Positions 5,602-24,236 of a DNA stretch of 24,504 nucleotides are shown piece by piece. The notes beneath the pieces were generated by a model that was not told the origin of the DNA, ran no database searches, and worked only from the letters and a program-made list of their open reading frames with translations. The stretch is from IMG/VR virus record IMGVR_UViG_2861069343_000004. One strand, given 5' to 3'. How positions within the stretch are numbered: the first letter of the stretch is position 1; the number at the start of each line of letters is the position of its first letter. A program made the translations under genes and the position numbers. The DNA is from a virus (Duplodnaviria; Heunggongvirae; Uroviricota; Caudoviricetes).

Positions 5602-5738
5602 GCCGTGACGTTATCGAACGCATCCGCGACCGCTGGCAAAAGCTTCGCCTCCTGCGTAGCCGCGGCACCGTGCTGGTCGACTACAAAATATTACGCAATT
5701 TCGTCCGTATCTATAAGCGCCTGGGAGAAGCAGCATGA
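5598..5738 (+). CDS. Small YlcG-like protein (46 aa, [46 protein letters not shown])
   Basis: Hand-translated. ATGA overlaps at both ends. A small gene of this size sits between rusA and the Q-like gene in DLP12-type prophages. Confidence 0.5.
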
Positions 5739-6424
5739 CAGCTCAATACTTGGAATTTGTTCGCCAGCAGCTGATAGTGGCCACCGCCGATCTGAGTGGT
5801 GCGACGAAAGGGCAACTGGTAGCTCTTGCAGAGAACGCGCAATTTACCGCTACGGCGCGCAGCCGTGGCCGGAAGAAGGTATATAGCGAGGTGAAGCAAA
5901 AAATGGTTAACCCGGATGGACCGCCGATGAGCGGCAGCCAGTCCCGCGCTAAGGGTTCCTCAATCGCTCTCGTTCTGCCCGTTGAATACTCGACAGCCAG
6001 CTGGCGTCGCGCCCTCCTGTCGCTGGAAGACCACCAGAAATCCTGGTTGCTGTGGAACTACAGCGACAATATCCGCTGGGAGCACCAGGAGACGATAACC
6101 CGCTGGGCATGGGAGCAATTCAGCGACAAGCTGGCCGGTGTGCGCATTGCAAAGAAAACAGTCGATCGCCTCTGTCAACTTATCTGGCTGGCCGCACAGG
6201 ACGTCAAAGCCGAGCTGGCAGGACGGGAGACGTATGAATACCAGTCGCTGGCGGAGCTGGTTGGTGTAGCAAAGTCCACATGGACAGAAACCTACCTCCC
6301 TCATTGGCTGGCGCTGCGCAGCAGTTTTGTGAAGCTTGATAGCGACGCTCTCATGGCGGTAACGCGATCACGTTCACAACAAAAGGCGTCAAATTTAGAT
6401 GTAAGTCTTGCAAAACCGAACTGA
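5735..6424 (+). CDS. Putative late-gene antiterminator (Q-like) (229 aa)
   Basis: Last gene before a promoter plus terminator and the lysis cassette, which is the canonical Q position. The family call is positional plus weak recollection. Confidence 0.5.
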   Translation: MTAQYLEFVRQQLIVATADLSGATKGQLVALAENAQFTATARSRGRKKVYSEVKQKMVNPDGPPMSGSQSRAKGSSIALVLPVEYSTASWRRALLSLEDHQKSWLLWNYSDNIRWEHQETITRWAWEQFSDKLAGVRIAKKTVDRLCQLIWLAAQDVKAELAGRETYEYQSLAELVGVAKSTWTETYLPHWLALRSSFVKLDSDALMAVTRSRSQQKASNLDVSLAKPN

Positions 6425-6436: not shown

Positions 6437-6491
6437 TCATGTAAATCTGATATCGTCGCCATAGCTTCGATTGTCGACACATAAAGAATTC

Positions 6492-6520
6492 AAGCCCGAG
6501 GTTAACGCCTTGGGCTTTTT
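6492..6520 (+). terminator. Intrinsic terminator (tR'-like): 10-bp stem AAGCCCGAGG/CCTTGGGCTT, loop TTAACG, then a T-run
   Basis: Inverted repeat with one G-U pair followed by TTTTT, read from the sequence. Confidence 0.7.
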
Positions 6521-6527
6521 CATTTCA

Positions 6528-6602
6528 GGGTCAGAAGCACAGCGGTTGTGCGTTCGGCTGTTAACCGAATGGTAGAAGGTTCGAATCCTTCCTGTCCCGC
6601 CA
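6528..6602 (+). tRNA. tRNA-Asn (anticodon GTT)-like gene, 75 nt including an encoded CCA
   Basis: Hand-folded cloverleaf. The D stem (GCAC/GTGC), anticodon stem (TTCGG/CCGAA) and T stem (GAAGG/CCTTC) are all perfect. The anticodon loop is CTGTTAA (E. coli tRNA-Asn has CUGUUAA) and the T loop is TTCGAAT. The acceptor stem GGGTCAG/CTGTCCC has one T-T mismatch at 4:69, and position 8 is A rather than U. Confidence 0.6.
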
Positions 6603-8331: not shown

Positions 8332-8479
8332 TACGGCCTGCAGCTGGGTGCGGATCATCTACCTGACCGACCACGACATCGACGTGCTGGATAAGCAGAC
8401 CAAGCGCGACATCCTGGCGCATAACAAAGCTTGGCAGGCGAACTGCCAGAAACCAACAGCCGTCACCATTCCAAAATGA
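8246..8479 (+). CDS. o-spanin (Rz1/LysC-like) outer-membrane lipoprotein, overlapping the i-spanin in the +1 frame (77 aa)
   Basis: The ATG at 8246 is preceded by AGGAGG. Signal peptide with an LIGSC lipobox-like motif, and Pro-rich. It starts inside the i-spanin gene and extends beyond it. Confidence 0.7.
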   Translation: MYSKPLAICLMTMLIGSCAKSLPAPVVVDTACSWVRIIYLTDHDIDVLDKQTKRDILAHNKAWQANCQKPTAVTIPK

Positions 8480-8576
8480 TAAGCATGACAACTGGCATTC
8501 AATTATTGCCTATGATGATGCTCTTTGATTTAGTTGCTGATATAATCCCCCTAAATGATTTCAGGAGGGTTCTGCG

Positions 8577-8885
8577 TTGTCCGCGATAAACCACATAAAA
8601 AACCCGTTAACGATTATCGGTATTTTTGCGGGGATAGTAGAGGTCTCTGCAAACCTCGTATTACCTTTTCTTAATGATTCCCAACAAAGTACATATCTTT
8701 GGTTTTTAATGTTTTTCCCGGCAGGGCTTGTAATAGTGTTTTTTTTGACGCTGAATTTTAATCATGTTGCACTTTATGCTCCAAGCGATTATAGCAACGA
8801 TAAAGGATTCATGCAGGCCAATGGTAAAATGATCGGTAATGATGTCAAGGATACTGATGCAACGCAAGGCTTTGAATTAACATGA
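8577..8885 (+). CDS. Hypothetical small membrane protein, AT-rich moron gene 1 (102 aa, TTG start)
   Basis: ORF in a visibly AT-rich segment with AGGAGG 7 nt upstream of the TTG. Two hydrophobic segments. ATGA-coupled to the next gene. Confidence 0.45.
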   Translation: MSAINHIKNPLTIIGIFAGIVEVSANLVLPFLNDSQQSTYLWFLMFFPAGLVIVFFLTLNFNHVALYAPSDYSNDKGFMQANGKMIGNDVKDTDATQGFELT

Positions 8886-9148
8886 ATAAATTTATTTCAA
8901 GCACTTTTAATAATACTGTCGTCGAACTGGATGGCAACCATTTCGAAAAGTGCGTTTTTGAAAATTGCGAAATTGTATATAAAGGATTGCAGCCTTTTAA
9001 TTTAATTAATTGTAATTTTATTGCATGTAAATGGAAATTGGAAGGTGCAGCGTCAAACACAATTAACTTTTTAAAGGTTATGTATAAAGATATGGGTGAG
9101 TTTGGAAAGAAAATGGTAGAAGCCACTTTCGAAAACATAAAAAAATAG
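8882..9148 (+). CDS. Hypothetical small Cys-containing protein, AT-rich moron gene 2 (88 aa)
   Basis: ORF translationally coupled to the membrane protein. It has a repeated FENCEIVYK / LINCNFIACK pattern and is followed by a hairpin plus T-run. Confidence 0.5.
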   Translation: MNKFISSTFNNTVVELDGNHFEKCVFENCEIVYKGLQPFNLINCNFIACKWKLEGAASNTINFLKVMYKDMGEFGKKMVEATFENIKK

Positions 9149-9179
9149 TTTCATCCATTTACTTTCAGTTTATGAGATA

Positions 9180-9206
9180 CAGCCCTGCAATCGCGGGGCT
9201 TTTTTA
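9180..9206 (+). terminator. Terminator-like hairpin (AGCCC ... GGGCT) followed by TTTTTT
   Basis: Inverted repeat plus a T-run directly after the moron cassette. The stem boundaries are approximate. Confidence 0.45.
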
Positions 9207-9317
9207 TGCGCATCGCTCGCGCACATCAAAGAAAGTATTTCAGCGGTGAGCTTGGGCAAACCGTTAACTTTCGGCGGCTCTGCCGTGCGACAGGCTCACA
9301 TCTAAAAGGAAAACAGC

Positions 9318-9746
9318 ATGAAAAAGTTTTTAATCGACATGATTGATAAGGGCCTCTATTACGCGTTGCTTGCGGCGCTGGCTTTTGGGTCGGTCACAGG
9401 GCAAAGCAACGTCCTTAACGTGGCTGCTGCTGCGTTTTGGGTGGTGGTATTTCTTGGTGGGGTGGTTGGCATTATCACAATATTTCTCGCACATGGTGCA
9501 GAGCATATAACTGATGAGAAATCACGTCAGTCTGTGCTGGAGTCGCTGAGGAAGATTGTCCGGCGTAAGAACGTCATTGCTCGATGGTGGGGCTGGTTCT
9601 GCATGATGGCGACCATCGCTCTACTTGCCTACGGCGGCTGGGTATTTACCGCAGTGTGTTATGCGCTTTCATCCCTGTTTGTGCGGTTCTGCATTTCTCT
9701 GGCCAGAGACAAAGTAGAAAAACAGACGGTCGGCGTTTTAGCTTGA
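9318..9746 (+). CDS. Hypothetical integral membrane protein, about four transmembrane segments (142 aa)
   Basis: AAGGA ribosome-binding site and four long hydrophobic segments. Located between the moron cassette and the small terminase gene. Confidence 0.6.
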   Translation: MKKFLIDMIDKGLYYALLAALAFGSVTGQSNVLNVAAAAFWVVVFLGGVVGIITIFLAHGAEHITDEKSRQSVLESLRKIVRRKNVIARWWGWFCMMATIALLAYGGWVFTAVCYALSSLFVRFCISLARDKVEKQTVGVLA

Positions 9747-12154: not shown

Positions 12155-13606
12155 ATGGCGAAGAAAACAGGACGAGTCGCCACGGCGGATTCGTACGATA
12201 ACTTTGTTGCCCGTGTCGGAATGCAGCAGCCTAACCAGCATGCCGCATCGACCTACAGGGCGAACTATACCAGCCGCAACCGCCTGCTCATCGAGTGGGC
12301 TTATCGTTCCTCCTGGATTATTGGTGCCGCAGTCGATTCGAAAGCGGACGATATGACCAAAAAGGGCGTGCGGATCACCAGTGAGATTGACCCGAAACGT
12401 CGTGGCATTCTGGAATCACGGTTCGATGAGCTTCAGCTTTGGGATTGCATCAACGAGACGCTGAAATGGTCCCGGCTGTATGGCGGGGCGGTGGCGCTGA
12501 TTCTGATTGAAGGTCAGGCACCGCTGACGCCGCTGGTGCTGGATAAGGTTGGCAAGGGCAGCTTTAAAGGTCTGGCTGTACTTGACCGCTGGATGATTAA
12601 CCCACAGCTCACCAGGCGCATTAAGGCGCTTGGCCCCAATCTCGGCAAGCCAGAATTCTATGACATCGTGACGACGGCGCAGGGGCTTCCTGCGTGGACC
12701 GTTCACCACAGCCGACTGATTCGCATGGATGGTGTGAAACTGCCCTACCAGCAGAAAATCACCGAAAACGAGTGGGGCATGTCCATTGTCGAGCGCATCT
12801 TCGATCGCCTGACTTCCTACGATAGCACCAGCGTCGGCGCCGCCCAGCTTGCCTACAAGGCACATCTGCGAACGGCAAAGATTAAAAAGCTGCGTGAAAT
12901 TATCGCCATGGGCGGTAAACCATTCGAAGCGCTGGTTAAACAAATGGAGTTAGTTCGCCAGTACCAGACGAACGAGGGTATGTCCCTGTTTGATTCGGAG
13001 GACGAATTTGAAACACATTCCTATTCTTTCGCGGGCCTGTCTGACCTGCTTAGCGAGTTTAAAGAGGATATCGCGGGTGCTGTTGGCATTCCTCTTGTCC
13101 GTCTGTTCCGCCAGTCACCGAAGGGTTTTTCAACCGGTGACGCTGACCTCGCGAACTACTACGACGACGTTGGAACGCTTCAGGAGCGAGATTTACGGCC
13201 TCACATCCGCCTGTTATTCGATGTACTGCATCGCTCAGAGTTTGGCGAGCCGTTGCCGCAAGATTTCACCTTTGAGTTTAACCCCCTGTGGCAGATGAGC
13301 GACACCGATCGCTCCACGGTGGCAACCAACACAACTACCGCTCTTGCAACCGCGGTGCGTGATTTGGGCATGTCGCCGGCTGCTGCTCTGACTGATTTGC
13401 GCGAGCTGTCTGACGTTACCGGCATCGGTGCTTCAATTAGCGATGAGGATATCCAGAATGCGGCGAAACAGTGGCAGGAGACTGAATCTGAAACCAGCCC
13501 TCCGCCGCCGATCGGAGGTCCAGTATCAGAAAAGCCTACTGGCGATAGTCGACCAGATAAATCAAATCGTCACGGGTTCCTACGATGGTTCACAGGCAAG
13601 CGCTGA
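12155..13606 (+). CDS. Portal protein (483 aa)
   Basis: Large ORF directly downstream of the large terminase with a GGAG ribosome-binding site, followed by a Mu-F-like head morphogenesis gene. Size and order fit a portal. The C-terminal 60 aa are low-complexity and overlap the next ORF. Confidence 0.75.
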   Translation: MAKKTGRVATADSYDNFVARVGMQQPNQHAASTYRANYTSRNRLLIEWAYRSSWIIGAAVDSKADDMTKKGVRITSEIDPKRRGILESRFDELQLWDCINETLKWSRLYGGAVALILIEGQAPLTPLVLDKVGKGSFKGLAVLDRWMINPQLTRRIKALGPNLGKPEFYDIVTTAQGLPAWTVHHSRLIRMDGVKLPYQQKITENEWGMSIVERIFDRLTSYDSTSVGAAQLAYKAHLRTAKIKKLREIIAMGGKPFEALVKQMELVRQYQTNEGMSLFDSEDEFETHSYSFAGLSDLLSEFKEDIAGAVGIPLVRLFRQSPKGFSTGDADLANYYDDVGTLQERDLRPHIRLLFDVLHRSEFGEPLPQDFTFEFNPLWQMSDTDRSTVATNTTTALATAVRDLGMSPAAALTDLRELSDVTGIGASISDEDIQNAAKQWQETESETSPPPPIGGPVSEKPTGDSRPDKSNRHGFLRWFTGKR

Positions 13607-14210
13607 GAGCATTGCTAAATCGCTTGTTGACTACTCCGGGGTGATCGACGACTGGGCCGAAATGGTCGGTCGAAAGATGTTTGCCCAGGTGGAGCGTGAA
13701 GAGTGGAATCAGTGGCGCTCTGTTTCGGAAGAAATATCCGCTGGTCTGCGTGACGTGATTAGTAACACTCCTGTCGGCATGGTGGCACAAGACACCGTTT
13801 ACCGGCAGATTCGCTATATGAAATCTTTGCCATTAGAGGCGGCCGGACGTGTCAGGGAGATTCAGGAGCGTGCGATAAAGGCTGTCATCCATGGTGAGCG
13901 TCCAGATCAGCTTTACGAGATGATCATGCAATCCGGTGACGTGGCGGCCAGCAGGGCGCGGATGATAGCCCGCACTGAGATAGGCCGCGCAACTACCGCA
14001 TTAACTCAGGCTCGGGCGCTGTCAGTTGGCTCTGAGGGGTACTGGTGGCGCATCAAGGGGGCTGGTACCAGGCCATCGCACCGAGGAATGAAAGATAAAT
14101 TTGTGCGCTGGGATAACCCGCCAACGCTTGACGGCATGACCGGACACGCCGGATGCCTGCCGAACTGCGATTGCTGGCCAGAAGTGCAGATCCCTGAGTT
14201 TAGAAAATAA
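13428..14210 (+). CDS. Head morphogenesis protein, Mu-F / SPP1-gp7-like (up to 260 aa; true start uncertain)
   Basis: C-terminal Cys/His motif (HAGCLPNCDCWP) characteristic of Mu-F-like minor head proteins. The ORF as drawn overlaps the portal by 178 nt; in-frame ATGs occur at 13443, 13458 and 13662. Confidence 0.7.
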   Translation: MLQLAMRISRMRRNSGRRLNLKPALRRRSEVQYQKSLLAIVDQINQIVTGSYDGSQASAESIAKSLVDYSGVIDDWAEMVGRKMFAQVEREEWNQWRSVSEEISAGLRDVISNTPVGMVAQDTVYRQIRYMKSLPLEAAGRVREIQERAIKAVIHGERPDQLYEMIMQSGDVAASRARMIARTEIGRATTALTQARALSVGSEGYWWRIKGAGTRPSHRGMKDKFVRWDNPPTLDGMTGHAGCLPNCDCWPEVQIPEFRK

Positions 14211-14241
14211 TGCATTAGTAACAACTCGATAGGGATAGCAA

Positions 14242-14664
14242 ATGAAGCAAAACATACATAAGCTTAACGGGTTAGAATTCACCCATGAACGCGATTTTAT
14301 CAACGGGCAATGGGTATATTCTTGGTATTTTAGACCCCTAGAGCAATCTGAATGGTGCCCATTCTCGCTGCCAACGGGGAAAACAAGAAAATCTGATATT
14401 GAGAATTTCTTAAAAAATTGTGAAGAAGCTACCAATTTCTATTTAGAGTGGTTAAGAAATGCCTCTGATGTGGAAGGTGCTGAACGCTATTTATTATCCG
14501 CAAAACAAGCTTGGGAAAGGATATCTAGCCCGGACTGGGGAGGGCGTGGAAATAATCCAAACAAGGATGCCAGGAGGGTGCAACAAGCAAGAGAAACTCT
14601 CGAATCGGCAAAAGTAAAGCTTGAGAAAGCCAAGATATTACGAGAAAGATTAAATAGTAACTAA
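14242..14664 (+). CDS. Hypothetical protein, AT-rich moron within the head module (140 aa)
   Basis: ORF with visibly lower GC than the flanking structural genes and its own downstream terminator. No family recognised. Confidence 0.6.
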   Translation: MKQNIHKLNGLEFTHERDFINGQWVYSWYFRPLEQSEWCPFSLPTGKTRKSDIENFLKNCEEATNFYLEWLRNASDVEGAERYLLSAKQAWERISSPDWGGRGNNPNKDARRVQQARETLESAKVKLEKAKILRERLNSN

Positions 14665-14669
14665 CAACG

Positions 14670-14697
14670 AGGCCGCTATTCAGCGGCCTTTTCTTTG
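14670..14697 (+). terminator. Intrinsic terminator (stem AGGCCGC/GCGGCCT, loop TATTCA, TTTTCTTTG)
   Basis: Perfect inverted repeat plus a T-rich tract immediately after the moron gene. Confidence 0.65.
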
Positions 14698-14719
14698 CCC
14701 GCCATTCAGCAGGTAACCC

Positions 14720-15922
14720 ATGAAATATTTCTTTAAAACCCGCCTGGGTAATACTCGCTTTCAACTTACTGATGGGTCAGTCCTGTTTAAGGACGTCCCG
14801 ATCGCAAGGACTGGTGAGCTGGAGTACGACGCCACAGAGCGGCCTGAGCTTGTCCCAAACGACAGAGGGAAGGTCATCGTACGCCGGACGCCAGAAGAGG
14901 TGTTCAGCGAGCGAGCCATGGCGTCATTCGAAGGAATGGCAGTCACTATCGGCCATCCGCGAGATTTTGACGGGCAGATCATCTTTGTTACCCCTGATAA
15001 CTGGCGCCAGCTGGCTCACGGGCACATCCAGAACGTACGACGTGGCACGGACGATAAAACCGATCTGCTGCTGGCTGATGTCATCGTCAAAACCCCGGAA
15101 GCCCTGCAGGCAATTGATGATGGTGATGACGAGGTCAGCTGCGGGTACGACGCCGATTACGAACAGATTTCACCTGGTCTCGCAAAGCAATCTGCGATTA
15201 CCGCTAACCATCTGGCCCTTGTCCCTAACGGGCGGGCCGGTTTCCGTTGTGCAATAGGGGATTCTATGCCAAGCACTACTAAAAACTGGTTTACCCGGCT
15301 CCTGAAGGCCCGTAAAACCGGGGACGCTGCCGAAATGGCAAGTCTCATTGATAACCCGCCTGATGATGTCACGGGCGATAACGACGTATCGACCTCTATG
15401 ACACCTGGCGGAGTGGTCATCAACCTTGCGCCGCAAAATCCGCTTCCCGGCCCGGCATTGCCTGGAACCGGCGATGCCGAGGAAGAAATTCCTGCATGGG
15501 GTAAGGCGCTGATTGAGGCGGTGGCCAAACTCACGCCTGCGGCAACTGCTCCTGGAACCGGCGATGCCGAGGACGAAGAGGAGAAAAAGGAAGAAGAGGG
15601 TAAGGTTACCGGCGACGCCGCTTACCGTGCCGATCTGATTCAGCCAGGCATCCAGTTGCCAGAAAAGGCGAAGCCGACAGCATTCAAGCGTCAGGTGCTC
15701 GCCTCTGCCGATCAATCTCTGGTGCGCTCTATTGTCGGTGATGCCGATATCAGCAAGCTGAAAAAAGCCACGGTGGATATGGCTTTCACAGCTGTTTCTG
15801 AGCTGGCTAAAAACCGCAATACCAAAACCGTCGACAGCCTGCAAACGCAGACTGCCACCACTGTTAAAACCATTGCCGGTATGAATCAGGCCGCGCAGGA
15901 ATTCTGGTCTAAACGAGGCTAA
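14720..15922 (+). CDS. Putative scaffolding / prohead-protease-like protein (DUF2213-like) (400 aa)
   Basis: Positioned between the portal/Mu-F genes and the capsid gene. Has an acidic low-complexity centre (PGTGDAEEE repeated) and a helical C-terminus typical of scaffolds. The family name is recollection-based. Confidence 0.6.
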
Positions 15923-15925
15923 CCA

Positions 15926-16420
15926 ATGGGTAATACATTTCTTTACCGGATGCCTGCGGGCATCGCCGGGGCAATTTCTCGTCCGCAGGATCTGACGGTT
16001 GAACCTCAACTGCTGGACTCCTCCAACCTTTTTCCCGCTTACGGCCTTGGCGGCAAGATTTCCTCCGGGAAATTTGTGCCAATCGCTGCGAGCGATACAG
16101 CGTCGGTGCTGGTGGGCATTTACGTTCGTCCGTATCCGACCGCCAGCCAGCCGGATAAAGTCCAGCAGGTAGGCAGCGGTAAAAACTTCACCGGCGATTG
16201 CCTGGTCCGTGGTTACGTCACGGTAAACATCGGCGCGGATGCATCCAGCGTTGCGCTGCATGGCCCGGTCTACATGCGAGTGGCCACACCATCCGCCTCA
16301 AGCCCTCTCGGCGCGTTCCTTGCCGCCGCTGATGGCTCGAATACCGTCCAGATCACTAACGCTTACTTCAATGGCCCTGGCGACACCAGCGGCAACATTG
16401 AGCTGGCCTTCAATATTTAA
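15926..16420 (+). CDS. Hypothetical head protein (164 aa)
   Basis: ORF tightly packed between the scaffold-like gene and the capsid gene. Gly/Ala/Ser-rich. Confidence 0.6.
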   Translation: MGNTFLYRMPAGIAGAISRPQDLTVEPQLLDSSNLFPAYGLGGKISSGKFVPIAASDTASVLVGIYVRPYPTASQPDKVQQVGSGKNFTGDCLVRGYVTVNIGADASSVALHGPVYMRVATPSASSPLGAFLAAADGSNTVQITNAYFNGPGDTSGNIELAFNI

Positions 16421-20400: not shown

Positions 20401-21281
20401 TGGCGACTAACGATTTTAAACCCTTCGCTACTGGTAGCGGGGCAAACGTATTATCACAAGCTGATTATGACGCACTGTCGGCCAGAACAACTGGCTTTTT
20501 AAGTGGCAAAGCGTCTTCGGCCCAGGTCAACAAAGCTTTAAGGCAGGCATCAACTATTGCGGCGGTTGTGGCGCAGTTTATTTCTGATAACAGCGGCGAT
20601 GACACCCTTGATAACGGTAATTTACCTACCTTACTGGCTAGTCTCGAAAGCGCCCTCCTCAAGTCCTCCCCTGGGCGGTTACAGAATATCGTTAGCTTTA
20701 CCGCAAATGGGACCTACACCCCATCGCCAGGAACCAAACATGTAAAAGTTATTGTTACTGGCGGTGGTGGCGGTGGTGGTGGTTGTCAGGGAACTTCAGG
20801 ATCTGAATCAGTTTCAGGTGGCGGCGGCGGTGCTGGTGGTACGGCCATTGGTTATTTTGCTGTAACTGAATCCAGCTATGCAGTCACTGTAGGTGCTGGT
20901 GGTTCTGCTGGCGTTGGTGCTGTCCAGGGTGGAACAGGCGGAACCTCAATCATTAACGGCATTAGCGGATTGGGCGGAGATGGTGGTCAGAAATCAGGGA
21001 TCACTACGCTGGCTGGTGGGAAAGGCGGTATTTCTATTGGTGGCTCGGTTAACCTTCCCGGAGGTTACGGCACTGATGGGCAAAATGGCTCCCTGATTAT
21101 CCCCGGCAATGGCGGCTCGTCATATTGGGGCGGCGGTGGTCGTGGGGGCGCACGCGGGGGCGTGGCAGGGGATTGTTATGGTGCCGGTGGTGGTGGCGCA
21201 TATGATGCTGCCATGTCTGGCAACTCCTACAATGGCGGACAGGGGAAAGCAGGGATTGTATATATTGAGGAATATTCTTAA
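20400..21281 (+). CDS. Tail fibre protein with a glycine-rich low-complexity C-terminal region (293 aa)
   Basis: N-terminus [25 protein letters not shown] resembles conserved tail-fibre N-termini as I remember them. Long Gly runs (GGGGGGGGCQG ... GGGGAGG ...) are typical of fibre shafts. Confidence 0.65.
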   Translation: MATNDFKPFATGSGANVLSQADYDALSARTTGFLSGKASSAQVNKALRQASTIAAVVAQFISDNSGDDTLDNGNLPTLLASLESALLKSSPGRLQNIVSFTANGTYTPSPGTKHVKVIVTGGGGGGGGCQGTSGSESVSGGGGGAGGTAIGYFAVTESSYAVTVGAGGSAGVGAVQGGTGGTSIINGISGLGGDGGQKSGITTLAGGKGGISIGGSVNLPGGYGTDGQNGSLIIPGNGGSSYWGGGGRGGARGGVAGDCYGAGGGGAYDAAMSGNSYNGGQGKAGIVYIEEYS

Positions 21282-21451
21282 TGGTAAGCAAGTATGCAGT
21301 CCTGAAAGAATGCGTGGTAGAAAACATTATTGTTGCTGATGATAATTACTCTCCTGATGATTTCGAAGTCGTAAAATATAGCGACGAAACATTTTGCCAG
21401 CCAGGCATGTTGTACAATAAAGAGGATGGTTTATTTTATGATGATAAATAA
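21281..21451 (+). CDS. Hypothetical small protein (56 aa, MVSKYAVLKECVVENIIVADDNYSPDDFEVVKYSDETFCQPGMLYNKEDGLFYDDK)
   Basis: Hand-translated, AT-rich, TAATG-coupled to the tail-fibre gene. Resembles small proteins often found beside fibre genes (recollection only). Confidence 0.4.
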   Translation: MVSKYAVLKECVVENIIVADDNYSPDDFEVVKYSDETFCQPGMLYNKEDGLFYDDK

Positions 21452-21498
21452 TCATCAAGAATAAATAACATTATCTACATATCTACACATTACCAATC

Positions 21499-21521
21499 AA
21501 CCGGCTTATGCCGGTTTTTTA
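21499..21521 (+). terminator. Intrinsic terminator (stem AACCGGC/GCCGGTT, loop TTAT, TTTTTTA), 11 nt upstream of the tailspike ATG
   Basis: Perfect inverted repeat plus a T-run, read from the sequence. Confidence 0.6.
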
Positions 21522-21532
21522 TTGGGGCGACC

Positions 21533-23617
21533 ATGAGTGAATACGATACCGGCAATCCTGTGCCGTCTGCATCAATACCTGATGCATGGGATAATATGCA
21601 GACTATTGACAGGTTCGCTAATAGTAGTGATGAAACTATTACCACGCGTACAGGTAAGCAGTTAGACACTCTGCATGGCATCAATGTAAAGTCTGATAAC
21701 CAACTTAATGAACAACAAGATACCTTTGAATTATCTCAATCCGAAAGGGAATCCTCTTTCGAAGAAAAATCAAATGAATTTGAATCGCGCTTCTCCTCTC
21801 AGTTATCGGCGCAGGAATCAACATTTTCAGAATCTCAATCTGATAAAGAAAACCGCTTTCAGCAGTTCCTGAATACTTCAGGATACGTGTTCCTTGGCGA
21901 TTATCAGGACGGCCCATTCCAGTTTAGTGCCCGTAACCAGTACATCCGTTACGACAATGAGTATTACCGCCTGAATGCTGCTACTGACGTCGGCTTTACG
22001 ACCACCGGAACCGATGCGACCAGCTTTGCGAACGACGTTACTCACTTCGTTCTGATGGATGGTGATACGCTTCGCCAAGACCTGGGTTCAGGCGAAGGAG
22101 CAATGAAGGTTTACCGGAACGCCTCACCTCTGGCCAGAATCATTCGCTCCTCGATTTTTGAATACCTTACTGAAGCTGATCAGCAGGCGTTGCTCACAAT
22201 TCCTGGCGTTAATGTTATCGCTGACTACGCGTTAAAAAAAGCTATAGCTGATGGAGTGATGGTACTGGATATTCCGTGGAATGTCGGTGCGTTAAATTTC
22301 GGGCTTGACCCCGCAATGCTTCCATTAGGTTTTCAATTTATAGGGTGGGGTTGCCGACGCCCATATACAATTGATGACGATAACAGTTTTCTGAATTGCG
22401 GAGTCGTCATCCGCGTAGCAGCTGGTGCAAGTTTTCCATTTTATTCAACAGGCAGGCATGTATTCCGGGATATTGTTTTTGATGGCCGAGATAAAACAAC
22501 GTACCTTTTTTATTCGCCAAATACTGCAACCCAGTTCAACGGCACCCGACTTGAGGGGTGCGGATTTTATCGGTTTGCGATCGGGATTGGCTGGGCTTCA
22601 GGAGGAACAGCCAGGTACATCGGAACAATGAAAGCATATTTCTGCTCAATATCCGGAAACGGGGATGGAGTCAGGAATTTAATAGACTCCATGATGTTTG
22701 GTTGCACAATCAATGCTAATGATCGAGGAGTGGCCCTTACCGGTGGGGCAAACAATAACTTTTTTGGAGGATGCCGGAACGAATGGAACACCGGCGATAA
22801 CTGGTATGCGTACCAGTCGGTGGAGAACCAGATTTTCGGCGAACTGTGCGACAGGGCCGGAAGGGGAGGTGTGGTCGCCGGGGCGAAATCCTCATGGATT
22901 TTAAACGGCGTTAACGTCCGGCGCAGTGGTGCTAATCAACCCGTGGGTAATGACTATTCCGCAAACTTTATTATTATTGATGACGGTAAAATTGAACTCT
23001 CAGGGGTAAGAACTGGTGTCGGTGCGAATGACAGCGGTGACGGAGGGACAATCTCGCCATCCTACAACGTATCGGCTCTTGGCTCTGGCGGGGGGACCTT
23101 GCAGGTTTCCGGAAGTGACATGACTGGTTTTGTTACTTCAGCAATTAACCAGAAGGCGACCACGTTAAATAAGTCGATAACCGGCAACCTTGGTATGGAC
23201 GACGATGTAAATATTGGTATGACCCAGGTTGTTAAAGGCAGGCGAATTATTGGTTCACAGTCATCAGGTACGTTAGCAGGCTCTGCGGGCGCAACGTTAT
23301 CGCTGACCAAGACCAACATATTCCAGAATTCTTTCGATACATATATTACCCGTTCAATCCTAATTGAATGTCGAATTGGTAGCCAGTCATTTGGTGACGA
23401 TATTAAAATTCCCGTCAGATTCAGAAGGGAGAATCTTTATTATCTGGATATCCTGACCTCGGGAATTGTTGCCAGCTCTGCACGCATTGGGCTTTCAGGG
23501 ACTGGCGTAACGGTATCATTGTCCATTAACAGCTCAACCGGTCTGGTTACTGTTCAGTTGACAAATGTTGATGGTCTGGAAAGAACCGTTAATGTATCAA
23601 TGTTGCCCTCAATGTAG
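21533..23617 (+). CDS. Tailspike-like receptor-binding protein / putative polysaccharide depolymerase (694 aa)
   Basis: Large, lower-GC ORF after the tail fibre. The acidic Ser/Glu-rich N-terminal region is followed by repetitive Gly/Asn-rich segments (FGCTINANDRGVALTGGANNNFFGG, NFIIIDDGKIELSGVRTG) compatible with a beta-helix. The fold is inferred, not demonstrated. Confidence 0.6.
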   Translation: MSEYDTGNPVPSASIPDAWDNMQTIDRFANSSDETITTRTGKQLDTLHGINVKSDNQLNEQQDTFELSQSERESSFEEKSNEFESRFSSQLSAQESTFSESQSDKENRFQQFLNTSGYVFLGDYQDGPFQFSARNQYIRYDNEYYRLNAATDVGFTTTGTDATSFANDVTHFVLMDGDTLRQDLGSGEGAMKVYRNASPLARIIRSSIFEYLTEADQQALLTIPGVNVIADYALKKAIADGVMVLDIPWNVGALNFGLDPAMLPLGFQFIGWGCRRPYTIDDDNSFLNCGVVIRVAAGASFPFYSTGRHVFRDIVFDGRDKTTYLFYSPNTATQFNGTRLEGCGFYRFAIGIGWASGGTARYIGTMKAYFCSISGNGDGVRNLIDSMMFGCTINANDRGVALTGGANNNFFGGCRNEWNTGDNWYAYQSVENQIFGELCDRAGRGGVVAGAKSSWILNGVNVRRSGANQPVGNDYSANFIIIDDGKIELSGVRTGVGANDSGDGGTISPSYNVSALGSGGGTLQVSGSDMTGFVTSAINQKATTLNKSITGNLGMDDDVNIGMTQVVKGRRIIGSQSSGTLAGSAGATLSLTKTNIFQNSFDTYITRSILIECRIGSQSFGDDIKIPVRFRRENLYYLDILTSGIVASSARIGLSGTGVTVSLSINSSTGLVTVQLTNVDGLERTVNVSMLPSM

Positions 23618-23625
23618 GAGTGAAA

Positions 23626-23805
23626 ATGGAAGACGAAACAGAACTGACCGAACCGCCATTTGAAACCTGGTTCAGAGACGTGGTTGAACTGGTTAAAAAT
23701 GGCGGACATTCAATGGATATTGTTGCCTATAAGGGGGAATGGGTTGATTATTTTTCGGAAGGATTAACACCAGAAGATGCGTTTATAAAAAGAATGGCTC
23801 TTTAA
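23626..23805 (+). CDS. Hypothetical small acidic protein (59 aa; the track shows a GTG start at 23620)
   Basis: ATG preceded by AGGAG at 5 nt. Located directly after the tailspike stop. Confidence 0.45.
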   Translation: MEDETELTEPPFETWFRDVVELVKNGGHSMDIVAYKGEWVDYFSEGLTPEDAFIKRMAL

Positions 23806-23918
23806 ATAACCGACCGAAAATAAATGTCAGGGAGTAACGTATTGATAATTTTCGACAAAACGGCAGAGCATAGTGAAAACCGCCTGTGGATGATGGCCAA
23901 CATGGGGAGGATTCTGTA

Positions 23919-24236
23919 ATGGGCTTTCCATCACCCGCGACGGATTACACGGAACAGCGATTAACGGTTAACTCGATCTGCAATGTCGGTCCAAATACGC
24001 GCCTCTTCGAGCAATCTGGCGGTTACGTTGTGCTGGATGTCTCCCTGAAACCAAAGCAGGCCAGTCAGGTTCTGATCCAGCACGGCGGCGGGACGGAGCT
24101 TGCCACGCTGAGAGGAAGGTCGCTGATTACCGAAGATGGTGAAGCGATCGAGGGCGAGGCCCTGGACGATGTTACTGTCATCGGTGTAGTGACGTTTACT
24201 ATCTGCGATGTGCGCCAGGACAATGCGGTTGTTTAG
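23919..24236 (+). CDS. UmuD'-like protein (HumD-like): lacks the N-terminal arm and the catalytic Ser (106 aa)
   Basis: Begins MGFPSPATDYTEQRLTVN (E. coli UmuD has CGFPSPAADYVEQRIDLN) and has a C-terminal beta-strand region resembling UmuD. The position aligning with the UmuD GDSM nucleophile motif reads SGGYV. GGAGG ribosome-binding site 9 nt upstream. Confidence 0.7.
   Translation: MGFPSPATDYTEQRLTVNSICNVGPNTRLFEQSGGYVVLDVSLKPKQASQVLIQHGGGTELATLRGRSLITEDGEAIEGEALDDVTVIGVVTFTICDVRQDNAVV

What the first reader, a model, noticed from the sequence alone, without database searches (positions are those of the whole stretch)
14220..14700. AT-rich single-gene moron with its own terminator inserted inside the head-assembly operon
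A 140-aa protein of clearly lower GC sits between the Mu-F-like gene and the scaffold-like gene and is followed by a strong intrinsic terminator, an unusual interruption of a structural operon. The sequence has an N-terminal aromatic-rich half and a C-terminal charged helical half, with no recognised family. Anti-defence or defence cargo is plausible.
Basis: partly seen in the sequence, partly recalled or inferred. Interest (0 to 1): 0.6.

Follow-up and report, generated by a model that had tools for sequence, protein, structure and literature searches.

The report
Optional cargo gene in phage head operon
A small AT-rich gene of unknown function sits in a swap-in/swap-out slot between two head genes of an E. 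coli/Klebsiella prophage. The gene is real, under selection and dispensable, which makes it a reasonable lead for a phage-host conflict protein, but not the freshly inserted, self-contained "moron" it first looked like.

Summary
A 140-aa ORF (14242-14664, +) has GC 0.40, against 0.55-0.58 for its neighbours. It lies between the short MuF gene and the DUF2213 protease/scaffold-like gene, and a GC-rich hairpin with a T tract follows it (14669-14698).

- **Terminator:** the hairpin is not the gene's own. Relatives with an empty slot have it, it shows compensatory changes, and it marks the edge of a hypervariable slot.
- **Slot contents:** of 76 related head modules, 36 have an empty slot, 9 carry ORF140 and 31 carry other cassettes.
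- **Promoter:** no sigma-70 promoter precedes the gene, and a Q antiterminator lies upstream, so late co-transcription is the likely mode of expression.
- **Age:** the gene is not a recent import. Homologues occupy this slot in head modules that are only 42-60% identical in protein, and all of them stay AT-rich. Its dS is nonetheless lower than that of the flanks, which points to cassette exchange.
- **Other settings:** distant homologues occur in a Vibrio phage accessory region, an integrase island with defence-type genes, a plasmid, and a phage early region.
- **Structure:** the AlphaFold2 model (pLDDT 94.8) shows a four-stranded sheet plus helices ending in a long hairpin. It matches no Pfam, PHROG, NCBIfam, PADLOC, PDB or BFVD entry.

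Best guess: a non-enzymatic binding protein used in phage-host conflict. Function is untested.

The parts
5735..6424 (+). Q antiterminator gene (context: it explains how a terminator can be tolerated inside the late operon)
   Evidence: NCBI's genome annotation pipeline (PGAP) labels the identical E. coli sequence 'bacteriophage antitermination protein Q'. The window differs from that record by 1 base in 24,504.
13662..14210 (+). Short MuF-family head morphogenesis gene (182 aa, no C-terminal toxin extension); left border of the slot
   Evidence: PF04233, E 2e-12; phrog_324. Relatives and PGAP use the 549-nt start. Homology with empty-slot relatives ends exactly at 14210.
14211..14669 (+). The 459-nt present/absent segment: a 31-nt leader with a Shine-Dalgarno motif, ORF140, and 5 nt
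   Evidence: blastn against seven empty-slot relatives. Alignments stop at 14210 and resume at 14670, and the relatives have a single C in place of this segment.
14242..14664 (+). ORF140: 140 aa, 16.6 kDa, pI 8.9, soluble; a four-stranded sheet plus helices ending in a long hairpin with the conserved tip loop SPDWGGRGNNPNKD
   Evidence: Identical to WP_046659655.1 'hypothetical protein'. dN/dS is 0.11-0.22. The family has 48 representatives among 1.84 billion proteins.
14669..14698 (+). Conserved GC-rich hairpin plus T tract (intrinsic-terminator-like); right border of the slot
   Evidence: It is present in empty slots and next to other cassettes. Four of 7 pairs show compensatory changes in 17 variants.
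14699..14719 (+). Conserved non-coding motif GCCCGCCATTCAGCAGGTAACCC, which includes the ribosome-binding site of the DUF2213 gene
   Evidence: It is nearly invariant at the nucleotide level across loci whose proteins are only about 45-55% identical.
14720..15922 (+). DUF2213/Pa193_gp24 protease/scaffold-like head gene
   Evidence: PF09979, E 1e-35; phrog_1961 and phrog_530.

Best explanation
ORF140 is a real, selected but dispensable cargo gene. It occupies a hypervariable slot at the junction between the MuF gene and the protease/scaffold gene in a group of enterobacterial temperate phages.

**Shown**
- The slot is bounded on the left by the MuF stop codon and on the right by a conserved terminator-like hairpin.
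- Cassettes are gained, lost and swapped there. ORF140 is one long-standing occupant.
- ORF140 moves between related head modules as a cassette: its synonymous divergence is several-fold lower than that of its flanks.

**Inferred**
- It has no promoter of its own. It is transcribed with the late head genes by Q-modified RNA polymerase, which also reads through the hairpin.
- In a lysogen, the hairpin and the AT-rich composition would keep it and the downstream capsid genes quiet.

**Inferred, weakest step**
- The product is a small, soluble, non-enzymatic protein that works by binding. The likely binding surface is the strictly conserved loop at the tip of its helical hairpin.
- It serves phage-host or phage-phage conflict, most likely counter-defence during lytic growth, rather than building the capsid.
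For: **Optional gene in a hotspot**
- All 13 closest GenBank phages lack it: 12 have an empty slot and one has a different ORF.
- Among 76 IMG/VR modules, gap classes run from 49 to 934 nt. Thirty-six are empty, 11 carry a 249-nt cassette, 8 a 261/262-nt cassette, 9 carry ORF140, and the rest are other classes.
- The indel has clean edges at 14211-14669.

**Selected protein:** dN/dS is 0.11-0.22.

**Cassette mobility:** ORF140 dS is 0.012 against 0.10-0.19 in the flanks, 0.115 against 0.97-1.40, and 0.157 against 0.44-1.63.

**Function not tied to heads.** Homologues occur in:
- a Vibrio phage accessory region near a transposase and Phd/RelE genes;
- a Vibrio crassostreae integrase-AlpA-VapE island that carries GmrSD and AAA_15 genes;
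- a Rep3/ParAB plasmid;
- a phage early region downstream of a DNA methyltransferase gene;
- a locus beside AAA_15/FRG genes.

Head modules with and without the gene are 97-99% identical, so no co-adaptation is needed.

**Late expression:** no promoter was found, the leader is 31 nt, and a Q gene lies upstream.

**Binder rather than enzyme:** the model is confident (pLDDT 94.8) and has no catalytic fold. Only generic helical-hairpin matches were found.

**Positional precedent:** the anti-CRISPR loci of Mu-like Pseudomonas phages lie between gene G and the protease/scaffold gene and are low in GC (PMC3993853, PMC4378225).
Against: - No functional evidence of any kind exists. PADLOC and all other family libraries are negative.
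- Late expression is unusual for counter-defence genes, which are normally early.
- The same family has stayed in the same slot across head modules only 42-60% identical, with r 0.82-0.91 against core genes. That could instead mean a functional tie to head assembly.
- The promoter scan is a simple consensus scan and could miss a weak or non-sigma-70 promoter.
- Neighbouring defence-type genes in two distant loci are only circumstantial evidence.
- AFDB structure libraries were unavailable.
Confidence: 0.4

Rival explanations
1. **Prophage-encoded defence or superinfection-exclusion protein.** ORF140 is expressed at a low level in the lysogen and protects the host against other phages. The terminator insulates the capsid genes.
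For: - It has moron-like traits: AT-rich, optional, and followed by a terminator.
- It is retained intact in a roughly 24.5-kb prophage remnant that has lost its tail and immunity genes, and its exact sequence is seen on 655 contigs.
- Homologues lie next to GmrSD/AAA_15 genes in an integrase island and next to AAA_15/FRG genes.
Against: - No promoter was found, and the leader is only 31 nt.
- It is co-oriented inside a Q-dependent late operon.
- There is no PADLOC hit in 38 members, apart from single-member hits with E > 0.02.
- It has no enzymatic or membrane domain. Known single-gene defences of this size are mostly membrane or exclusion proteins, and this protein is predicted to be soluble.
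Confidence: 0.2
2. **Optional head-associated protein.** ORF140 is an assembly helper, or an internal protein packaged with MuF and the portal and ejected into the next host. This would explain why it stays next to MuF and is made late.
For: - Synteny between MuF and the protease/scaffold gene is strict in all 27 phage loci examined, down to 42% identity, with co-divergence.
- Expression is apparently late.
- From my own knowledge, not checked here: MuF-family proteins are minor head proteins packaged near the portal.
- Packaged anti-restriction proteins of P1 and T4 are a precedent, mentioned in PMC4378225.
Against: - The gene is absent from 36 of 76 related modules and from all 13 closest GenBank phage isolates, which are viable phages.
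- Flanking head genes are 97-99% identical with or without it.
- Homologues occur on a plasmid, in an island and in a phage early region with no head genes nearby.
- It resembles no known head protein.
- Its low dS relative to the flanks fits cassette exchange better than a co-evolving structural partner.
Confidence: 0.2
3. **Orphan immunity protein of a MuF polymorphic-toxin system.** Small ORFs directly downstream of MuF toxins are thought to encode immunity proteins.
For: An ORF of fewer than 150 aa lies immediately downstream of a muf gene. This arrangement is seen after 89% of MuF toxin genes and after 25.5% of short MuF genes (PMC5576092).
Against: - The MuF here is short (182 aa). The Pfam match runs to within about 10 residues of its C-terminus, so there is no toxin domain.
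- Homologues occur with no muf gene nearby.
- No MuF with a C-terminal extension was seen next to any homologue.
Confidence: 0.05

Closest known systems
Morons of lambdoid phages (the Hendrix/Juhala concept: an extra gene between conserved late genes)
   Same: An optional single gene sits between two conserved late genes. Its base composition is deviant, a terminator lies at its 3' end, and close relatives lack it.
   Different: No promoter of its own was found. The terminator belongs to the slot and is present when the slot is empty. The gene has held this position through deep divergence, so it is not a recent addition.
Anti-CRISPR (acr) locus of Mu-like Pseudomonas phages (JBD30, D3112 group)
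   Same: A variable, low-GC accessory region lies inside the head-morphogenesis genes immediately upstream of the protease/scaffold gene. Different small unrelated genes occupy one fixed position (PMC3993853, PMC4378225; compare).
   Different: There is no aca-type helix-turn-helix regulator gene. There is no sequence or fold match to any Acr: AcrIF24 and an AcrIF protein appear only at Foldseek E > 0.2. The head module family and the host are different. Activity is untested.
Hypervariable hotspots of P2-like phages and P4-like satellites
   Same: A fixed intergenic position flanked by conserved genes holds many alternative cargo cassettes (bioRxiv 10.1101/2024.10.15.618418; compare).
   Different: Those hotspots carry recognisable multi-gene defence systems expressed from the prophage. 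Here the cargo consists of single small ORFs, or a non-coding element, of unknown function inside the late operon.
Tad1 (Thoeris anti-defence sponge)
   Same: The size is similar. The gross layout is similar too: an N-terminal antiparallel sheet followed by C-terminal helices (PMC10680739; model).

Membership tests
Moron (classical definition) | Extra gene between two genes that are adjacent in close relatives | tested here: met
   Empty-slot relatives join the MuF stop to the hairpin with a single C. The indel is 14211-14669. The slot is empty in 36 of 76 modules.
Moron (classical definition) | Own promoter | tested here: inconclusive
   The consensus sigma-70 scan found 0 sites in 13000-16000. 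The leader is 31 nt, and no upstream promoter-like motif is conserved across clades. Weak or non-consensus promoters are not excluded.
Moron (classical definition) | Own terminator | tested here: not met
   The hairpin is present in empty slots, lies upstream of the cargo in the 249-nt class, and is structurally conserved.
Moron (classical definition) | Deviant nucleotide composition | tested here: met
   GC 0.40 and GC3 0.38, against 0.55-0.58 and 0.57-0.70 in the neighbours. The same holds in all 27 loci.
Moron (classical definition) | Expression from the repressed prophage | not testable with these tools
   Needs RNA-seq or 5' RACE of lysogens.
Acr-aca anti-CRISPR locus | Adjacent aca helix-turn-helix regulator gene | tested here: not met
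   There is a single ORF between MuF and DUF2213, with no HTH family hit.
Acr-aca anti-CRISPR locus | Homology to a known Acr | tested here: not met
   The profile search of the PDB found no Acr. Foldseek found AcrIF24/AcrIF only at E 0.22-0.62 and TM <= 0.30.
Acr-aca anti-CRISPR locus | Inhibition of CRISPR-Cas | not testable with these tools
   Needs a plaque or transformation assay.
Tad1 sponge family | Sequence or fold match to Tad1 (PDB 7UAV/7UAW) | tested here: not met
Tad1 sponge family | Binding of gcADPR or cyclic oligonucleotides | not testable with these tools
   Needs a binding assay.
MuF polymorphic toxin / immunity pair | Upstream MuF carries a C-terminal toxin domain | tested here: not met
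   The MuF is 182 aa. The PF04233 match spans residues 144-249 of the 260-aa extended reading, which runs close to the C-terminus. The same short MuF is seen in all homologous loci.
Known head accessory / decoration proteins | Conserved in relatives and similar to a known head protein | tested here: not met
   It is absent from half of the related modules. No PHROG 'head and packaging' hit and no structural match.
Known anti-phage defence proteins (PADLOC-DB) | Match to a defence-system model | tested here: not met
   0 families for ORF140. Among 38 members there are only single-member hits, with E >= 0.027.
TPR repeat proteins | Pfam TPR match above the gathering score | tested here: not met
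   At most 3 of 38 members hit TPR_12/TPR_14, with best E 0.005. A designed consensus TPR scores E 2e-4 to the profile, but each domain has i-E 0.84.
Intrinsic (Rho-independent) terminator | GC-rich stem-loop followed by a U tract, structurally conserved | tested here: met
   Termination efficiency and read-through by Q-modified polymerase are not testable here.

The most novel reading that the evidence does not exclude
ORF140 founds a new family of phage counter-defence proteins with a previously unseen fold: a four-stranded sheet packed on a helical bundle that ends in a long hairpin with an invariant P-D-x-(D)-P-G-G-x-x-N-N-P-x-K tip loop. It would be made together with terminase, portal and capsid proteins. 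It would either shield these known triggers of abortive-infection sensors or soak up an immune signal. It is kept AT-rich so that it stays silent in the lysogen. The MuF|protease-scaffold slot would then be a reservoir of such genes in Klebsiella and E. coli temperate phages, comparable to the acr locus of Mu-like Pseudomonas phages.
Probability: 0.25. Interest if true: 0.65.

Novelty: new member of a known kind. Interest (0 to 1): 0.4.

Why it matters
If ORF140 and the other cassettes in this slot are conflict genes, the MuF|protease-scaffold junction becomes a defined, easily mined hotspot. It sits in temperate phages that are common in clinical Klebsiella and E. coli: the exact protein occurs on 655 contigs. 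All of the slot's cargo is currently unannotated.

Three results from this work also stand on their own:
- A terminator next to a moron-like gene need not belong to it.
- Low GC need not mean recent acquisition. Here it persists after synonymous sites have saturated.
- Such a gene can be both old in its slot and mobile as a cassette.

Tried and rejected
**Family and fold searches that found nothing specific**
- Pfam, PHROGs, NCBIfam and PADLOC, on ORF140 and on 38 family members.
- A profile search of PDB sequences gave only weak TPR-like or compositional hits.
- The AFDB libraries were not available.

**Collection searches**
- Rfam on the window and on four relatives found nothing in the slot.
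- PLSDB plasmids: no hit.
- GenBank phages, using three family members as queries: only one Vibrio phage.
- Scans of the GTDB species-representative genomes found 0 and then 1 locus.
- Two alignments were too diverse for pattern scans.
- Context look-ups for P0024, P0017 and P0010 returned contigs too short to be useful.
- Literature searches by accession number and by phage name found nothing.

**Other checks**
- Pfam on the alternative cargo ORFs of the slot gave nothing.
- Promoter scans around distant homologues were at chance level.

**Ideas rejected**
- MuF-toxin immunity protein: the MuF has no toxin domain.
- DNA mimic: the pI is 8.9, so the protein is not acidic.
- P-loop NTPase: the GG..NNPxK loop lies between two helices and does not fit the Walker A motif.

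Full report
**1. What the window is.** The 24,504-base window differs by one base from E. coli WCHEC035148 chromosome 1949327-1973830. It is a prophage remnant between yecE and yecD. In order it carries:
- integrase and excisionase genes;
- a few early genes, then RusA and a Q antiterminator (window 5735-6424);
- a tRNA gene and the lysis genes;
- terminase, portal (12155-13606) and a short MuF (13662-14210);
- the ORF in question;
- a DUF2213/Pa193_gp24 protease/scaffold-like gene (14720-15922), a cement protein and the major capsid protein;
- neck genes, a truncated tail region and a tail fibre gene.

**2. The observation.** It is correct in every particular.
- ORF140 is 14242-14664 (+), 140 aa, with a Shine-Dalgarno-like AGGGA motif 8 nt upstream.
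- Its GC is 0.404 and GC3 0.376. The five neighbouring genes have GC 0.55-0.58 and GC3 0.57-0.70.
- Against all 423-nt windows of the late operon this is z = -3.6, and it is the lowest value in that operon.
- A 9-bp hairpin (6 G-C pairs) with a T tract follows at 14669-14698. As RNA it folds at -22.5 kcal/mol, z = -3.4.
- No Pfam, PHROG, NCBIfam or PADLOC family matches.

**3. Is it an insertion?** Compared with close relatives, yes.
- The 13 GenBank phages that match the flanks at 90-97% nucleotide identity (Klebsiella phage Mulock, Wanchaivirus PDP110P2, the ST11/ST16/ST512 prophages and others) all lack the ORF.
- Twelve of them go from the MuF stop codon through one C straight into the hairpin. 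One (ST16-OXA48phi5.2) carries an unrelated 64-aa ORF placed after the hairpin.
- blastn against seven empty-slot relatives places the difference at exactly 14211-14669.

I then surveyed 80 IMG/VR loci retrieved with the MuF protein, of which 76 could be scored.
- Thirty-six have an empty slot (49-57 nt, hairpin only) and 9 carry ORF140 (509-516 nt).
- Eleven have a 249-nt cassette, and 8 have a 261/262-nt AT-rich cassette with no ORF longer than 37 aa.
- Two have a 332-nt cassette with a 54-aa ORF.
- The rest are 455-934-nt classes: a 477-nt class and composites of the other elements.
- Modules with and without ORF140 can be 97-99% identical in MuF and DUF2213 protein.

So the MuF|DUF2213 junction is a true hypervariable cargo slot. 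In complete E. coli genomes, 78 of 5,426 carry this head module, and 43 of those include the ORF140 segment.

**4. The terminator is not the gene's own.**
- The same hairpin follows the MuF stop codon directly in empty slots.
- It follows ORF140 and the 261-nt element, and it precedes the 64-aa ORF.
- Seventeen distinct variants fold to one consensus stem. Four of the 7 pairs keep pairing through changes on both sides, and almost all variants are followed by a T run.
- It is therefore a selected structural element of the backbone that marks the edge of the slot.
- A Q antiterminator gene lies upstream. From established knowledge of lambdoid phages, Q-modified RNA polymerase reads through intrinsic terminators across the late operon. 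A terminator here therefore need not starve the capsid genes. This is inference; it was not tested.

**5. It is not a recent import.**
- Homologues at 77%, 59% and 55% identity (K. oxytoca/aerogenes, an unnamed isolate, Citrobacter) lie in exactly the same slot. So do 23 IMG/VR loci spanning 42-100% identity. Their portal, MuF, DUF2213, cement and capsid genes have diverged in parallel.
- Pairwise distances of ORF140 correlate with those of MuF, DUF2213 and portal at r = 0.82-0.91 (Mantel p about 0.0005). Core genes correlate with each other at 0.73-0.94.
- In all 27 loci the homologue stays at GC 0.39-0.47 and GC3 0.32-0.43, beside neighbours at GC3 of about 0.5-0.7.
- Synonymous sites between clades are saturated. 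The AT-rich codon usage is therefore being maintained and is not a fading mark of transfer. I cannot explain this. Possibilities are H-NS silencing in the lysogen, throttled translation, or re-import from an AT-rich pool. The Vibrio homologues sit at native GC of 0.40-0.41.

**6. Yet it moves as a cassette.**
- dN/dS is 0.11-0.22 in the informative pairs, so the protein is under purifying selection.
- In six of the seven pairs compared, ORF140's synonymous divergence is several-fold lower than that of both flanks. In the seventh (L008/L029) its synonymous sites are saturated.

| Pair | ORF140 dS | Flank dS |
|---|---|---|
| WIN / L022 | 0.012 | 0.19 and 0.10 |
| WIN / L025 | 0.012 | 0.16 and 0.16 |
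| L004 / L027 | 0.115 | 1.40 and 0.97 |
| L035 / L038 | 0.157 | 1.63 and 0.44 |
| WIN / L004 | 0.64 | 1.40 and 1.29 |
| L030 / L032 | 0.58 | 1.46 and 1.05 |

The simplest reading is exchange of the cassette by homologous recombination in the conserved flanks. The candidates are the 3' end of MuF on one side and the hairpin plus the invariant GCCCGCAATTCAGCAGGTAAC motif on the other. Exchange would be limited to phages whose flanks are similar enough, which would also produce the deep co-divergence without any functional tie to the head.

**7. The family elsewhere.**
- A profile search of 1.84 billion representatives finds only 48 proteins, nearly all 125-160 aa.
- The family is absent from PHROGs v4 and from PLSDB. 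It is present in one of 50,697 GenBank phage records.
- Distant members are not in head operons. They occur in:
  - the accessory region of Vibrio phage Va_90-11-286_p16, near a transposase and Phd/RelE genes;
  - a V. crassostreae island, between an integrase gene and AlpA-VapE genes, with GmrSD and AAA_15/DUF3696 genes alongside;
  - an Enterovibrio Rep3/ParAB plasmid;
  - a metagenomic phage early region, after DUF551 and a DNA methyltransferase gene;
  - a locus next to AAA_15/FRG genes.
- Two further contexts were uninformative.
- The function therefore does not depend on a head module, and the family travels on mobile elements of every kind.

**8. The protein.**
- AlphaFold2 with the 38-sequence family alignment gives pLDDT 94.8 and pTM 0.82.
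- Strands lie at residues 6-8, 11-20, 23-32 and 39-41. Helices lie at 50-58, 60-74, 77-95 and 106-139.
- The last two helices form a long hairpin. Its tip loop (SPDWGGRGNNPNKD; family consensus PD-x-DPGG-xx-NNPGK) is the most conserved part of the family.
- The protein is 16.6 kDa with pI 8.9, so it is not an acidic DNA mimic.
- The layout recalls Tad1 (N-terminal antiparallel sheet, C-terminal helices; PMC10680739). Tad1 does not appear in any hit list, so this is a resemblance and not membership.

**9. Mechanism.**
- **Shown:** ORF140 is an optional, selected cargo gene in a recombination slot bounded by the MuF stop and a conserved terminator hairpin.
- **Inferred:** it is co-transcribed late with the head genes. 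No promoter was found, the leader is 31 nt, and Q lies upstream.
- **Weakest step:** it is a non-enzymatic binder used in phage-host conflict, probably counter-defence.

The best positional precedent is the anti-CRISPR locus of Mu-like Pseudomonas phages. That locus lies between gene G and the protease/scaffold gene and is also low in GC (PMC3993853, PMC4378225). Here, however, there is no aca regulator and no homology to any Acr.

Rivals:
- A prophage defence or exclusion protein (0.2).
- An optional head-associated or packaged protein (0.2). The strict synteny favours this. Dispensability, unchanged flanks and the non-head contexts disfavour it.
- An orphan MuF-toxin immunity protein (0.05). 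The MuF is short. In PMC5576092, small ORFs follow 25.5% of short MuF genes and 89% of MuF toxin genes.

**10. Verdict.** This is a new, uncharacterised member of a known kind of feature: accessory cargo in a phage hypervariable slot. It is a fair lead for experiment, and so is the slot as a whole, but nothing here shows a new mechanism.

Noticed in passing
window 1-24504: The whole window is a roughly 24.5-kb prophage remnant between yecE and yecD of E. coli (1 mismatch to strain WCHEC035148). It has integrase, Q, lysis and head genes. It has no repressor or replication module, and its tail region is cut down: PGAP marks a truncated ORF after the neck terminator gene, and sheath and tube genes seen in relatives are missing.
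   Followed up: partly
window 6440-6599: An isrJ-family Hfq-binding sRNA match (57 bits, above the gathering score of 37) lies directly after the Q gene, followed by a tRNA (annotated tRNA-Asn). This is the usual position of the late promoter/terminator region.
   Followed up: no
window 8370-9426: A second, even more AT-rich stretch (GC 0.34-0.41) lies between the lysis genes and the terminase genes. It holds two small ORFs: 8577-8885 (102 aa, hydrophobic) and 8882-9148 (88 aa, weak pentapeptide-repeat hit, E 0.002). In K. oxytoca relatives this position holds a different gene (KTSC domain, opposite strand), so it looks like another cargo slot.
   Followed up: partly
window 21158-21998 and 23387-23936: Further low-GC stretches (<= 0.42) at the 5' end of the 694-aa tail-fibre-like gene and downstream of it.
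   Followed up: no
L103 3047-3307 and the same slot in L094, L098, L099, L052, L109, L120: A recurrent AT-rich element of about 210 nt, with no ORF longer than 37 aa and no Rfam match, occupies the same MuF|DUF2213 slot upstream of the hairpin, alone or combined with other cassettes. It is a candidate small RNA or regulatory element.
   Followed up: partly
L066 slot (249 nt), L002 1857-2051, and part of the L098/L052 slots: A 64-71-aa ORF (MKKVHIESKRAGDRR...GRGNVRQVKALLREFIRN...) is inserted after the hairpin in 11 of 76 modules. It has normal GC (0.56). A second small ORF in L120 shares the GRGN-RQ-K-LLREFI motif. Neither has a Pfam match.
   Followed up: partly
window 14699-14719 and all related loci: The non-coding motif GCCCGC(A/C)ATTCAGCAGGTAAC, between the hairpin and the DUF2213 start codon, is nearly invariant even between head modules whose proteins are only about 45-55% identical. 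That is more conservation than a ribosome-binding site alone would need.
   Followed up: no
L095, L099, L102, L052 slots (528-934 nt): In these relatives an ORF starting MVRINFVDEDRWITVHPNGG... runs with no stop codon through the rest of the gap, up to the inferred DUF2213 start. The frame relative to DUF2213 was not checked. It may be an alternative N-terminal extension of DUF2213 or a different gene boundary.
   Followed up: no
GenBank phages versus E. coli genomes: None of the 13 GenBank phage records with this head module carries ORF140, whereas 43 of 78 complete E. coli genomes with the module do. Clonal sampling of E. coli lineages is the likely cause but was not checked.
   Followed up: no
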